Virus record (IMG/VR): IMGVR_UViG_2875713109_000001
Source of the DNA: a virus
Lineage: Duplodnaviria > Heunggongvirae > Uroviricota > Caudoviricetes
DNA length: 64,000 nucleotides
Strand: one strand, 5' to 3'
The notes beneath the pieces are model-generated. The model had not been told where the DNA came from. It saw nothing but the letters and a program-made list of their open reading frames with translations, and searched no databases. The first letter of the stretch is position 1. The number at the start of each line of letters is the position of its first letter. Positions 59,390 through 61,752 of this stretch are shown one piece after another. A program made the position numbers and the translations under genes.

Positions 59390-60754
59390 ATGTCTGCATC
59401 CCCTCTTGAATCCATGCCAAATTCCCTTAGTGCAGAACAAGCTGTACTTGGTGGCTTAATGCTTGATAACTGCCGCTGGGATGAAGTTGCAGATCGTATA
59501 GTTGCTGATGATTTTTATACCAGTGCTCATCGTGAAATTTTCAGTGAGATGGAGAGGTTATTAAGTCATGGCAAACCGATTGATTTGATAACACTTGCTG
59601 AAGCACTTGAACAGAACGGTAAATTAGAACGCGCCGGTGGTTTTGCGTACCTTGCGGAGATGTCAAAGAACACGCCCAGCGCGGCAAATATTTGTGCTTA
59701 TGCGGATATCGTTCGTGAACGCGCGGTTGTTCGTGAAATGATTTCCGTCGCAAATGAAATAGCCGAAGCTGGATATGCGCAGGATGGCAGGGGCAGCAAT
59801 GAATTGCTAGATATGGCCGAGCGCCGCGTTTTTGAAATAGCTGAAAAACGACAAAAGAGCGGTAGTGGTCCAAAAGATATCGCCAGCATTCTCGATGCAA
59901 CGGTATCTCGCATAGAAGAGTTGTTTCAGCGACCACATGATGGTGTAACGGGGCTTGATACGGGATTTACCGATCTCAATAAGAAGACGGCAGGGCTTCA
60001 GCCGTCCGATCTCATCATTGTCGCCGCCCGCCCATCTATGGGGAAGACCACGTTTGCGATGAATCTCGTCGAAAATGCCGCAGTTCGTAACGATAAGCCC
60101 GTATTGGTTTTTAGCCTTGAGATGCCGAGCCACCAGCTGATGATGCGCTCACTGGCTTCTCTTGCACGCGTTGATCAGACTCGTATTCGGACAGGGCAAC
60201 TTAACGACGAGGATTGGGCGCGGGTTTCTGGCGCAATGGGTATTCTGTTGGACAAGCAGAATATTTTTATTGATGACTCAAGCGCCCTGACACCTACAGA
60301 GCTTCGTTCCCGCGCTCGTCGTGTTTATAAAGAAAATGGTGGTTTGAGCATGATTATGATCGACTACCTGCAACTTATGCGCGTCCCCGAGCTGCAAGAT
60401 AACCGAACGCTGGAAATTGCCGAGATTTCTCGCTCACTGAAGGCGTTGGCGAAGGAATTACAAGTACCGGTGGTGGCATTGTCACAACTTAATCGATCGC
60501 TTGAACAGCGTGCGGACAAACGACCGGTAAATTCAGATTTACGTGAATCAGGAGCAATTGAGCAGGACGCAGACCTGATCATGTTTCTGTATCGCGACGA
60601 AGTTTATCACCCGGATAGCGAAATGAAGGGCATTGCCGAGGTAATTATCGGAAAGCAACGAAATGGCCCAATTGGCACGGTGAGATTGGCTTTTAACGGC
60701 CAATACTCACGGTTTGATAACTATGCTGGTGCTGACTGGCAAGAGGATTATTAA
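59390..60754 (+). CDS. ban: DnaB-family replicative helicase
   Basis: Walker A ARPSMGKTTFAMN; DnaB N-terminal domain; ATG with SD GGAG. Confidence 0.9.
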   Translation: MSASPLESMPNSLSAEQAVLGGLMLDNCRWDEVADRIVADDFYTSAHREIFSEMERLLSHGKPIDLITLAEALEQNGKLERAGGFAYLAEMSKNTPSAANICAYADIVRERAVVREMISVANEIAEAGYAQDGRGSNELLDMAERRVFEIAEKRQKSGSGPKDIASILDATVSRIEELFQRPHDGVTGLDTGFTDLNKKTAGLQPSDLIIVAARPSMGKTTFAMNLVENAAVRNDKPVLVFSLEMPSHQLMMRSLASLARVDQTRIRTGQLNDEDWARVSGAMGILLDKQNIFIDDSSALTPTELRSRARRVYKENGGLSMIMIDYLQLMRVPELQDNRTLEIAEISRSLKALAKELQVPVVALSQLNRSLEQRADKRPVNSDLRESGAIEQDADLIMFLYRDEVYHPDSEMKGIAEVIIGKQRNGPIGTVRLAFNGQYSRFDNYAGADWQEDY

Positions 60755-61752
60755 TGCAATGGAATGAGGAAAAGCCGATGAACATCCTGATCATTGGGCG
60801 AAAATTTGAAGCTATCAGTGATGTGAAAACATATACGGAAATGTGGGCTTATAACCTGGCCTGCGCCTTTAGTGAGGCAGGGGTAACATTGCAATACCAT
60901 CGTCCATATTCCCCTGGCGTCGAAAGCCCGGAGGATTATGTTGAAGCTGTGTTGACTGCTGCGACCGCATGTTCTGCGAAGGCCATTTTGGCACCAGGAT
61001 TGAGGTATTTTACTACGGTACCCAGGGAAATAGGCATGCAACTGTGTCGCCGATTCTCTGGATGGGTAGCCCAGGTATATGACGGTTCTATGCTGGATTC
61101 GGCACCAGTCGATATTACTTTTACTGTCCGCGATGATACCTGGCGGTACCTGGATAATCCCGGCAGGTTAGAGCGTCATAATCGTTTTAACAAACATGTT
61201 GGATGGGCAGCGAATCAGGAGCTGTTCCATCTGGAAACCAAAACAGACGATATTCTGCGTATTTTTGTAGACCACGCTGCATTTGATGTTAGTGGTTTTG
61301 ATCACTCCTTAAGTATCCTTATGAACCTTCAGCGTCTGACCGTTCCGTATGAGGCCAGAACGTTGACTGATGACGGATTGGTTACCATTGATCCGGGGAA
61401 TATTTCGGTAACTCCATACAGGCGGACGCCGGTGCCAGCAACCGAATTTGCAGCTGAATTGCGTAAGAGTGACGTTTTTATCGTTACGCATCCCGAAAGC
61501 CTTGGATTAACTGTTCTTGAGGCGGCAATGTGTGGAGCGTTGATATTAACTCCGCCCGATTGCCTTCCGCCGGATCGCCTGGAGTTGGTGAACCATATGG
61601 TTATCAAGTCGCGGATTGATTGGGATGAGGTTATTGCTCGCGTTGATCGCGTGAAAAATGCTGAAAAGGTCCAGTGTCACACCTGGTCGGCAATTGCGGA
61701 AAAGATGCTTGAGACGTTTATCACGCAGAAACCGTCGCGCGGTAACGGATAA
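60754..61752 (+). CDS. hypothetical protein, possibly glycosyltransferase-like
   Basis: ATG overlaps ban stop (TAATG); C-terminal LTVLEAAMCGALILTPPD resembles GT-B donor-binding region; weak. Confidence 0.4.
   Translation: MQWNEEKPMNILIIGRKFEAISDVKTYTEMWAYNLACAFSEAGVTLQYHRPYSPGVESPEDYVEAVLTAATACSAKAILAPGLRYFTTVPREIGMQLCRRFSGWVAQVYDGSMLDSAPVDITFTVRDDTWRYLDNPGRLERHNRFNKHVGWAANQELFHLETKTDDILRIFVDHAAFDVSGFDHSLSILMNLQRLTVPYEARTLTDDGLVTIDPGNISVTPYRRTPVPATEFAAELRKSDVFIVTHPESLGLTVLEAAMCGALILTPPDCLPPDRLELVNHMVIKSRIDWDEVIARVDRVKNAEKVQCHTWSAIAEKMLETFITQKPSRGNG

What the first reader, a model, noticed from the sequence alone, without database searches (positions are those of the whole stretch)
60754..61752. 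Gene downstream of ban may encode a glycosyltransferase-like protein
The C-terminal segment LTVLEAAMCGALILTPPD resembles the donor-binding region of GT-B glycosyltransferases. A glycosyltransferase coupled to the replicative helicase gene could modify DNA or a surface polymer. The evidence is a single short motif and is weak.
Basis: inference. Interest (0 to 1): 0.3.

Follow-up and report, generated by a model that had tools for sequence, protein, structure and literature searches.

The report
Phage P1 dbn: a glycosyltransferase gene
The gene after the helicase gene ban is phage P1's known gene dbn, which almost certainly encodes a sugar-transferring enzyme, as public annotation already suggests; it is linked not to the helicase but to three other sugar-transferase genes of P1 that lie next to it in other phages.

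Summary
The ORF and the motif are real. The window is a P1-type phage, and ORF 60754-61752 is dbn ("downstream of ban"). GenBank has called it a "possible glycosyltransferase" since 2004, P7 calls it glt, and RefSeq calls it a GT4 family protein.

Two AlphaFold models (pLDDT 87 and 96) match only GT-B enzymes in PDB: all 50 listed hits, probability 1.0.

The gene is under purifying selection (pN/pS about 0.12) and is nonessential by published CRISPRi.

The link to ban is incidental. Some P1-like phages carry an extra ORF between ban and dbn. In unrelated phages, Dbn homologs sit beside orthologs of P1 PmgQ (GT8-like) and PmgO/PmgP (Cst-II/GT42-like). These cassettes often lie inside head-tail gene modules or just upstream of terminase.

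In P1, pmgO-P-Q lie about 6 kb away, outside the window. DNA glycosylation is unlikely.

Best reading: one enzyme of a four-enzyme phage glycosylation module. The acceptor is unproven; virion proteins are favoured and envelope glycans are the main rival.

As a finding this is already known. The module link is the only new angle.

The parts
60754..61752 (+). dbn ORF as listed (332 aa from the first ATG, stop included). It is the P1 gene 'downstream of ban'.
   Evidence: ORF; 100% identical to MH422554.1 and 99% to P1 AF234172, where it is annotated dbn, 'possible glycosyltransferase'. PHROG 2518 matches full length at E 2e-239.
60778..61752 (+). Probable true coding sequence (324 aa from M9).
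   Evidence: Homologs outside P1 start at this Met. pLDDT is low before residue 9 and beta-1 spans residues 10-14. In 8 P1-like loci a different upstream sequence joins exactly at this ATG.
60766..60770 (+). GAGGA Shine-Dalgarno-like sequence, 7 nt upstream of the M9 ATG. A second one, AAGAGGA at 60741-60747, precedes the first ATG.
   Evidence: Read directly from the sequence.
61495..61521 (+). E-x7-E motif (E248 to E256) within THPESLGLTVLEAA. This is the nucleotide-sugar binding signature of GT4-type retaining GT-B enzymes.
   Evidence: E256 is invariant and E248 is at least 90% conserved across 119 family representatives. This stretch aligns to the E-x7-E region of AmGGT, MshA-type enzymes, PimA and WaaG.
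61507..61560 (+). It forms helix 252-259 plus strand 263-266 of the C-terminal Rossmann-like domain.
   Evidence: position. (secondary structure).
61270..61275 (+). D173-H174, invariant in the whole family, at the end of the first strand of the C-terminal domain. Canonical GT4 enzymes carry Gly-Arg/Ser at this place.
   Evidence: invariance. (strand 168-172/173). (low-confidence register against WaaG).
59384..60754 (+). ban, the DnaB-type replicative helicase. It is the upstream neighbour and its stop overlaps the first ATG of dbn by 1 nt.
60117..60144 (+). Sigma-70-like promoter match inside ban. It corresponds to 'predicted promoter P2dbn' in the P1 record.
   Evidence: only 1 site found against 4.6 expected by chance, so weak. 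(P1 annotation, offset 11905).
61773..61799 (.). GC-rich hairpin GAAAAGCCCG-AUCGC-CGGGCUUUUC between the convergent genes dbn and 5. It is a likely bidirectional intrinsic terminator.
   Evidence: -17.6 kcal/mol, z = -3.9, 0 of 200 shuffles fold as well.
61799..62431 (-). Gene 5 (baseplate), the convergent downstream neighbour and first gene of the tail/baseplate block 5-6-24-7-25-26. In P1 this block separates dbn from pmgO-pmgP-ppp-pmgQ.

Best explanation
dbn encodes a soluble, cytoplasmic GT-B-fold glycosyltransferase of a distinct GT4-like family. It has an E-x7-E motif and probably uses a nucleotide-sugar donor with retention. Its position after ban is a matter of transcription, not function.

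Functionally it belongs with three other P1 genes that lie about 6 kb away, outside this window. PmgQ is a GT8-like GT-A enzyme with DxD. PmgO and PmgP are Cst-II/GT42- and MptE-like enzymes, a type that uses CMP-activated ulosonic acids. In other phages the four genes form one contiguous cassette.

The module builds a short glycan during lytic growth. The most likely acceptor is one or more virion structural proteins, as in mycobacteriophages. Dbn would add or extend one hexose-type residue.

What is shown: the fold, the motif conservation, purifying selection, the gene linkage and nonessentiality. What is inferred: enzymatic activity, donor, acceptor and biological role.
For: Fold:
- The AF2 models have pLDDT 87.4 and 96.4, pTM 0.85 and 0.93.
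- All top-50 PDB Foldseek hits are GT-B enzymes, led by GT4/GT5 types: GlgM, sucrose-phosphate synthase, PimB', BshA, WaaB and GtfC.
- The best viral hit is a Tupanvirus glycosyltransferase, E 3e-18, TM 0.78/0.82.

Motif: E248 and E256 are conserved across 119 representatives of a family of 370 clusters.

Real gene: pN/pS is about 0.12, and 52 of 53 distinct P1-like alleles are intact.

Solubility: no TM segment; protein pI 5.5. The N-domain pI is 6.1, against 8.8-10.0 for five E. coli GT4 enzymes that act on membrane-bound acceptors.

Linkage to the other genes:
- PmgQ-like genes are adjacent to, or within about 5 kb of, Dbn-like genes in L003, L004, L087, L092, L096, L098, L101 and L102.
- PmgO/P-like genes occur in L003, L004, L087, L092, L101 and L102.
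- PmgQ family profile against PDB: glycogenin E 2.4e-6, Skp1 alpha-GalT, LgtC.
- PmgO/P family profile against PDB: Cst-II E 2e-6 over about 175 residues.

Structural-module context:
- L102: capsid, PmgO-like, connector, Dbn-like, sulfotransferase, FkbM methyltransferase, PmgQ-like, head closure, tail genes.
- L098: Dbn-like, PmgQ-like and a methyltransferase immediately before head closure, tail completion and tail tube.
- L097: next to portal.
- L004 and phiNP: just upstream of terminase.
- In P1 the four genes flank the baseplate/tail block.

Lytic-phase control in P1: the ban operon is under a C1 operator, and the pmgL operon has a late promoter plus C1 operators.

All four genes are nonessential by CRISPRi, as expected for a decorative modification. 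There is a precedent for virion glycosylation by phage GTs (PMC12363180).
Against: - No glycosylated P1 virion protein is known to me, and none turned up in the literature searches.
- dbn is in the early C1-controlled ban operon, whereas pmgO-Q follow a late promoter.
- Bacterial family members sit in capsule or polysaccharide loci, so the family as such acts on glycans, not necessarily on proteins. Examples are an ABC transporter + Poly_export locus in Colwellia and a UDP-glucose dehydrogenase/epimerase locus.
- The canonical GT4 Arg/Lys phosphate binders are not evident. An invariant Asp-His stands at the end of C-beta1 instead.
- Pfam Glycos_transf_1 is below threshold for Dbn and is detected in only 20 of 119 members.
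- Some phages have PmgO-P-Q without Dbn, for example phiNP.
- The contexts examined are a dozen loci, not a census.
Confidence: 0.55

Rival explanations
1. Dbn, alone or with PmgO/P/Q, remodels a host envelope glycan from the cytoplasmic side. Candidate targets are the LPS core (the P1 receptor), enterobacterial common antigen or capsule. The effect would be to mask the receptor, exclude superinfecting phage, or stop progeny being lost on cell debris.
For: - Bacterial homologs lie in capsule/polysaccharide loci together with an MptE-like/WaaZ_KDO_III-like gene.
- Structural neighbours include the LPS core enzyme WaaB (5n80) and PimB'.
- PmgO/P resemble CMP-ulosonic-acid transferases. As far as I recall (my own knowledge), CMP-Kdo is the only such donor made by E. 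coli K-12.
- In lambdoid phages the cassette occupies the classical 'moron' slot between the lysis genes and terminase.
- That the P1 receptor is the LPS core glucose is established knowledge.
Against: - The P1 Dbn N-domain is acidic (pI 6.1), unlike the basic N-domains of WaaG, WaaB and WcaC/I/L.
- There is no Gtr-type flippase or GT-C partner and no TM segment.
- Expression is from repressor-controlled lytic operons rather than from a lysogen-expressed conversion gene.
- Several cassettes are embedded between capsid and tail genes.
- WaaS, the partner of WaaZ in K-12, is not related.
Confidence: 0.27
2. Dbn glycosylates phage DNA, in the manner of the T4 alpha/beta-glucosyltransferases or the HY126 arabinosyltransferase. 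This would explain its position behind the replicative helicase.
For: - It is a GT-B fold, like the DNA glycosyltransferases. 9ir0 (phage HY126 GT) ranked second in the first PDB search. HY126 DNA carries arabinosylated 5-hydroxycytosine, per PMC13326640.
- The gene shares an operon with ban.
Against: - The match to 9ir0 has 12% identity and TM 0.5. It does not appear in the top 50 with the better model.
- Glycosylation needs a hydroxylated or hydroxymethylated base. That no such pathway is known in P1, and that P1 DNA is an ordinary substrate of restriction enzymes, is established knowledge and was not tested here.
- The ban-dbn adjacency is broken in 8 P1-like loci and is absent from all other phage contexts.
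- The conserved partners are GT8-like and GT42-like enzymes, not base-modifying enzymes.
Confidence: 0.03
3. Dbn keeps the GT-B fold but is not a classical nucleotide-sugar glycosyltransferase. It could use another donor or chemistry, as GT-B-fold epimerases, hydrolases and phosphotransferases do. It could also be a non-catalytic partner of PmgQ.
For: - The GT4 Arg/Lys pair is not evident, and an invariant Asp173-His174 plus Asp183 stand in that region.
- Sequence similarity to GT4 is confined to about 40 residues.
- UDP-GlcNAc 2-epimerases are among the structural hits.
Against: - Both Glu of E-x7-E, and the surrounding TH-ES-G...EAA..G signature, are conserved across a very diverse family. 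This argues for retained nucleotide-sugar binding.
- Glycosyltransferases, not epimerases, lead both hit lists.
- Strong purifying selection.
Confidence: 0.12

Closest known systems
Phage P1 Dbn / P7 Glt (GenBank AAQ14048, AAQ07543; RefSeq 'glycosyltransferase family 4 protein')
   Same: It is the same gene: 99% and 98.4% nucleotide identity across ban-dbn-5. The public records already propose a glycosyltransferase.
   Different: No difference of substance. The P7 record starts the CDS at an internal TTG (residue 46), which would remove beta-1 and alpha-1 of the N-domain. The P1 record starts at the first ATG. The evidence here favours M9.
GT4-type retaining GT-B glycosyltransferases (WaaG, WaaB, PimA/PimB', BshA, GlgM, sucrose-phosphate synthase, AmGGT)
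   Same: It has a two-Rossmann-domain GT-B fold with the C-terminal helix returning to the N-domain. The E-x7-E motif sits in the same helix. At 324 aa it is small, like AmGGT at 342 aa (PMC12159676).
   Different: - About 10-14% identity.
- Pfam PF00534 is below threshold.
- No evident Gly-Arg...Lys-Gly phosphate-binding motif; an invariant Asp-His stands there instead.
- The N-domain is compact and acidic.
Mycobacteriophage virion glycosylation (Che8, Corndog, Myrna glycosyltransferases)
   Same: These are phage-encoded, nonessential glycosyltransferase sets. In several Dbn-family phages the genes lie within or next to structural gene modules, together with methyl- and sulfotransferases.
   Different: Homology to those enzymes was not tested. 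The hosts here are Gram-negative. No glycosylated P1 protein is known. The P1 genes are split between two operons.
DNA glycosyltransferases of phages (T4 AGT/BGT; HY126 arabinosyltransferase, 9ir0)
   Same: GT-B fold, phage-encoded.
   Different: The resemblance is generic fold similarity only. No base-hydroxylating partner genes are known in P1 (established knowledge). The conserved partners are other sugar transferases.
Tupanvirus soda lake glycosyltransferase A0A6N1NPH0 (giant-virus GT)
   Same: It is the best structural match of all: E 3e-18, TM 0.78/0.82, rmsd 3.3 A, 315 aa, 18% identity. It is probably the same family.
   Different: It comes from a eukaryotic giant virus. Its function is also unknown, and its context was not examined.

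Membership tests
GT-B fold glycosyltransferase superfamily | Two Rossmann-like beta/alpha/beta domains with an inter-domain cleft and a C-terminal helix packing back on the N-domain | tested here: met
   The AF2 models have pLDDT 87.4 and 96.4. Strand/helix order is E10-14...E146-148 (N-domain) and E168-172...E281-283 (C-domain), plus helix 311-323. All 50 listed PDB hits are GT-B in both searches.
CAZy GT4 / Pfam Glycos_transf_1 (PF00534) | Score above the Pfam gathering threshold | tested here: not met
   23.9 bits against a 26.4 cut-off, E 3.3e-5, covering only residues 229-315. Only 20 of 119 family members hit at E < 1e-3.
CAZy GT4 / Pfam Glycos_transf_1 (PF00534) | E-x7-E motif in the C-terminal domain | tested here: met
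   E248-x7-E256. E256 is invariant and E248 is at least 90% conserved in 119 representatives. It aligns with the E-x7-E of AmGGT, MshA-type enzymes, PimA and WaaG.
CAZy GT4 / Pfam Glycos_transf_1 (PF00534) | Conserved Arg and Lys after the first strand of the C-domain (GR...KG) that bind the donor diphosphate | tested here: inconclusive
   The family consensus at this place is D173-H174 ... D183, with no conserved Arg or Lys. The only alignment to WaaG/WaaB/WcaC/I/L has hhalign probability 5%. Model coordinates could not be inspected.
CAZy GT4 / Pfam Glycos_transf_1 (PF00534) | Nucleotide-sugar donor and retention of anomeric configuration | not testable with these tools
   Needs enzymology.
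Phage DNA glycosyltransferases (T4 AGT/BGT, HY126 type) | Co-occurrence with enzymes that make a hydroxylated or hydroxymethylated pyrimidine, and a specific family relationship | tested here: not met
   The conserved neighbours across 12 contexts are GT8-like, GT42-like, methyl- and sulfotransferases. The 9ir0 match is 12% identity and is absent from the top 50 with the better model. The absence of a hydroxylase in the whole P1 genome rests on established knowledge and was not scanned here.
Gtr-type seroconversion cassettes (GtrA/GtrB/GT-C) | Membrane flippase, bactoprenol GT2 enzyme and a polytopic GT-C transferase | tested here: not met
   Dbn has no hydrophobic segment above 1.55 on the Kyte-Doolittle scale, and that segment is the buried alpha4-beta5. 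Its neighbours in the window are ban and baseplate gene 5.
Phage virion-glycosylation modules (mycobacteriophage type) | Glycosyltransferase genes in or beside the structural operon | tested here: met
   This holds for the family members L098, L102 and L097. It holds only loosely for P1: dbn is convergent with baseplate gene 5, and pmgO-Q lie on the other side of the tail block.
Phage virion-glycosylation modules (mycobacteriophage type) | Glycan demonstrably attached to capsid or tail proteins | not testable with these tools
   Needs virion mass spectrometry or glycostaining.
Known anti-phage defence systems (PADLOC) | Match to a defence-system protein model | tested here: not met
   No PADLOC family at E <= 0.1 for Dbn or for three cassette partners.

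The most novel reading that the evidence does not exclude
P1 and many unrelated tailed phages of Gram-negative bacteria share a conserved four-enzyme glycosylation module. Its parts are the Dbn GT-B enzyme, the GT8-like PmgQ and two Cst-II/GT42-like enzymes, PmgO and PmgP. The module would decorate virion proteins with a short glycan that may contain Kdo or another ulosonic acid. That would make the classic coliphage P1 a glycosylated virus, and would reassign several 'putative morphogenetic' pmg genes as glycosylation enzymes.
Probability: 0.25. Interest if true: 0.65.

Novelty: already known. Interest (0 to 1): 0.3.

Why it matters

What could matter is the module link. P1 is a workhorse of E. 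coli genetics and phage-plasmid biology, and about a third of its genes have no function. Tying dbn to pmgO, pmgP and pmgQ gives four orphan, nonessential genes one testable function.

If the target is the virion, it would extend phage self-glycosylation from mycobacteriophages to a model coliphage. That is relevant to antibody evasion and to phage therapy design. If the target is the LPS core, it would be a new route of receptor masking.

Tried and rejected
- **Single-sequence search of PDB:** only chance hits, E 0.35-0.9.
- **KtrA hits of the A1 profile:** 5but scored E 1e-4, but it is an engineered tandem protein. Two 11-bit Rossmann-like matches (each with domain E about 1) were summed, so this was rejected as spurious.
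- **NCBIfam:** nothing usable.
- **PADLOC:** no defence family.
- **WaaS hypothesis:** I tested whether Dbn resembles WaaS, the partner of the Kdo-III transferase WaaZ in K-12. hhalign probability was 0.4%, so this was rejected.
- **Profile against single WaaG or WaaB:** only the E-x7-E region aligns.
- **Forced alignment to five E. coli GT4 enzymes:** probability 5%, used only as a weak register guide.
- **Genome-contig scan:** A1 found only a P1-like contig and a 209-bp Acinetobacter fragment.
- **Viral-contig scan with A1:** returned only P1-like loci. This was useful for allele statistics but not for context.
- **Partner genes in the window:** phmmer found none, because they lie beyond the window's end.
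- **First structure model:** it was no longer available for the viral library search, so the protein was re-modelled with the deeper alignment.
- **Literature:** the Lobocka 2004 P1 genome paper is not held. Searches found no functional study of dbn or of pmgO/P/Q.
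Full report
**What is there.** The window is a P1-type phage. 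The stretch ban to gene 5 (59384-62431) is 100% identical to Punavirus P1 MH422554.1 and 99% identical to the reference P1 genome. ORF 60754-61752 (+, 332 aa) is the P1 gene dbn, 'downstream of ban'.

The reference record annotates it 'function unknown, possible glycosyltransferase'. The P7 record names it glt, 'putative glycosyltransferase'. RefSeq clusters name it 'glycosyltransferase family 4 protein'.

The motif LTVLEAAMCGALILTPPD is residues 252-269, nt 61507-61560.

**Is it a real gene, and where does it start?**
- Among 83 P1-like copies there are 53 distinct alleles, and 52 of them are intact.
- Variable sites by codon position are 32/16/78.
- pN/pS against the window allele is about 0.12, so the gene is under purifying selection.
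- The first ATG overlaps the ban stop by one base (TAATG).
- The second ATG (M9, nt 60778) is the more likely start. Homologs outside P1 begin there. The models are disordered before residue 9 and beta-1 is residues 10-14. GAGGA lies 7 nt upstream.
- In 8 P1-like loci a 101-aa ORF is inserted between ban and dbn. The sequence change falls exactly at that ATG, which there has its own AAGGAG.
- A strong hairpin at 61773-61799 (-17.6 kcal/mol, z -3.9) separates dbn from the convergent baseplate gene 5.
- G+C content is unremarkable.

**Is it a glycosyltransferase?** By sequence alone the evidence is thin.
- Pfam Glycos_transf_1 gives E 3.3e-5, which is below the curated cut-off and covers only residues 229-315.
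- The PHROG family has no assigned function.
- There is no direct PDB hit.

The family is larger than the word-indexed search suggested: 22 hits there, but 370 clusters at 50% identity in the exhaustive profile search. In an alignment of 119 full-length representatives with 21-58% identity to Dbn, the invariant residues are D173, H174 and E256. Nearly invariant are W151, D183, F242, T245, H246, E248, S249, G251, A258, G261, W290 and W311.

E248 and E256 form an exact E-x7-E, the signature of GT4-type retaining enzymes. The family profile aligns this stretch to the experimentally characterised UDP-glucose enzyme AmGGT (8xsg, E 9.5e-5; PMC12159676). It also aligns more weakly to MshA-type enzymes, PimA and WaaG.

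Structure prediction settles the fold. The two models have pLDDT 87.4 and 96.4. In both PDB searches all 50 listed matches are GT-B enzymes at probability 1.00, headed by GlgM, sucrose-phosphate synthase, PimB', BshA, glycogen synthase and WaaB. The best match among predicted viral structures is a Tupanvirus glycosyltransferase, with E 3e-18 and TM about 0.8.

Two caveats remain. First, the Arg/Lys pair that binds the donor diphosphate in canonical GT4 enzymes is not evident. The invariant Asp-His sits at the end of the first C-domain strand instead, though the only alignment supporting this register is weak. Second, I could not inspect model coordinates.

**Is it coupled to the helicase or to DNA?** No.
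- The ban-dbn junction is interrupted in some P1-like phages.
- In every other phage context examined there is no helicase nearby.
- The hit to the HY126 DNA arabinosyltransferase (9ir0; PMC13326640) is generic GT-B similarity at 12% identity. It drops out of the top 50 with the better model.
- That P1 DNA is not hypermodified is established knowledge. I did not test it.

**What it is really linked to.** Dbn homologs elsewhere sit in a recurrent cassette.
- L004, a lambdoid contig: the order is O, P, x, Dbn, Q, just upstream of terminase. In the same contig the Q antiterminator gene lies about 4.5 kb upstream of the cassette.
- L087: P, Dbn, Q, O.
- Escherichia phage EP_H11 (L092): O, P, Dbn, Q.
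- L101: Dbn, P, Q.
- L096: sulfotransferase, Dbn, Q.
- A 95-kb Citrobacter plasmid (L003): O, P, Q lie 5 kb upstream of Dbn.

O, P and Q are orthologs of P1 PmgO, PmgP and PmgQ, with phmmer E-values from 1e-14 to 1e-89. In P1 these genes lie at 79.6-82.2 kb, about 6 kb beyond dbn. They are on the far side of the oppositely oriented tail/baseplate block 5-6-24-7-25-26, and so outside this window. The genome that matches the window at 100% carries PmgP at 74129-74740.

The PmgQ family has an invariant DxD, a GDQ motif and HGxPRP. Its profile hits glycogenin (E 2.4e-6), the Skp1 alpha-galactosyltransferase, a GT8 enzyme and LgtC, so it is GT8-like.

The PmgO/PmgP profile hits Campylobacter Cst-II sialyltransferase (E 2e-6 over about 175 residues). 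It also hits Cst-I, Lst, a Maf protein and MptE, so these are GT42/MptE-like enzymes that typically use CMP-activated ulosonic acids.

P1 thus carries four glycosyltransferase-like genes that travel together in other phages. I found no paper that makes this connection.

**What does the module act on?** This part is inference. Four observations favour virion proteins.
- In L102 the genes are interleaved with major capsid, connector, head-closure and tail genes, along with a sulfotransferase and an FkbM methyltransferase.
- In L098, Dbn-like, PmgQ-like and a methyltransferase directly precede head closure, tail completion and tail tube. In L097 the gene follows portal.
- In P1 the genes are under lytic control and flank the baseplate block. 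The P7 record calls the pmgN-Q homologs 'head morphogenesis'.
- The P1 Dbn N-domain is acidic (pI 6.1). Five E. coli GT4 enzymes that work on membrane-bound acceptors have N-domains of pI 8.8-10.0.

Nonessentiality of dbn, pmgO, pmgP and pmgQ in CRISPRi (PMC10695390) fits a decorative modification. Mycobacteriophages provide a precedent (PMC12363180).

Three observations favour an envelope glycan instead.
- A Colwellia homolog lies in an ABC-transporter capsule locus with an MptE/WaaZ-like gene. A 534-aa relative lies in another polysaccharide locus.
- WaaB and PimB' are among the structural neighbours.
- The P1 receptor is the LPS core (established knowledge).

I put virion proteins ahead of envelope glycans, but neither is shown.

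**Verdict.** The helicase/DNA reading is not supported. The new element is the link of dbn to pmgO-P-Q as one glycosylation module, which is directly testable. Interest is modest.

Noticed in passing
window 57956-59000 (+): A 275-aa SPFH/Band-7 protein (58173-59000; Pfam Band_7 E 1e-30), preceded by a 78-aa hydrophobic ORF (57956-58192), occupies the place where reference P1 has tciA-tciB-tciC. The same variant occurs in RCS47, Ro157c2YLVW and 813R1. A relative at 86-87% identity is found in phage P88 and in Stx2-converting phages, where it is variously annotated 'serine protease' or 'lipoprotein'.
   Followed up: partly
P1 AF234172 79592-82150 (locus L094 1793-4351); outside the window: The P1 'putative morphogenetic' genes pmgO and pmgP are Cst-II/GT42- and MptE-like. 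pmgQ is GT8-like, with DxD, GDQ and HGxPRP motifs. With dbn they form a cassette that is contiguous in other phages.
   Followed up: yes
L080 6699-7004 (and 7 other P1-like loci among L078-L086): A 101-aa ORF with no Pfam match is inserted between ban and dbn in a subset of P1-like phages. The junction falls exactly at the M9 ATG of dbn.
   Followed up: partly
window 57070-57145, 57148-57223, 59028-59103 (+): There are three tRNA genes in the ban operon: Asn(GTT), Thr(TGT) and a CAT-anticodon tRNA. ARAGORN calls the last one Met, while the P1 record annotates it tRNA-Ile2, a close relative of E. coli ileX.
   Followed up: no
L002 (P7 AF503408) 2506-3369: The P7 record starts glt at an internal TTG that corresponds to residue 46. 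This would delete strand beta-1 and most of helix alpha-1 of the N-terminal domain, so it is probably a mis-called start.
   Followed up: partly
L093 5617-7275 (Stenotrophomonas jumbo phage RAS14); BFVD A0A6N1NPH0 (Tupanvirus): The Dbn family reaches jumbo phages. RAS14 has a 552-aa protein with a Dbn-like domain, and a PmgP-like gene about 14 kb away. The family probably also reaches giant viruses of amoebae. Fusions to methyltransferase domains and tandem GT forms exist as well.
   Followed up: partly
L006 (Acinetobacter idrijaensis contig JQCU01000263.1, 209 bp): A 209-bp contig in an Acinetobacter assembly is 97% identical at protein level to P1 Dbn residues 241-309. It looks like contamination or a stray read rather than a true Acinetobacter gene.
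   Followed up: no
window 61773-61799: A strong GC hairpin flanked by A-run and T-run lies between the convergent genes dbn and 5, and is likely a bidirectional terminator. The consensus terminator scan missed it.
   Followed up: yes
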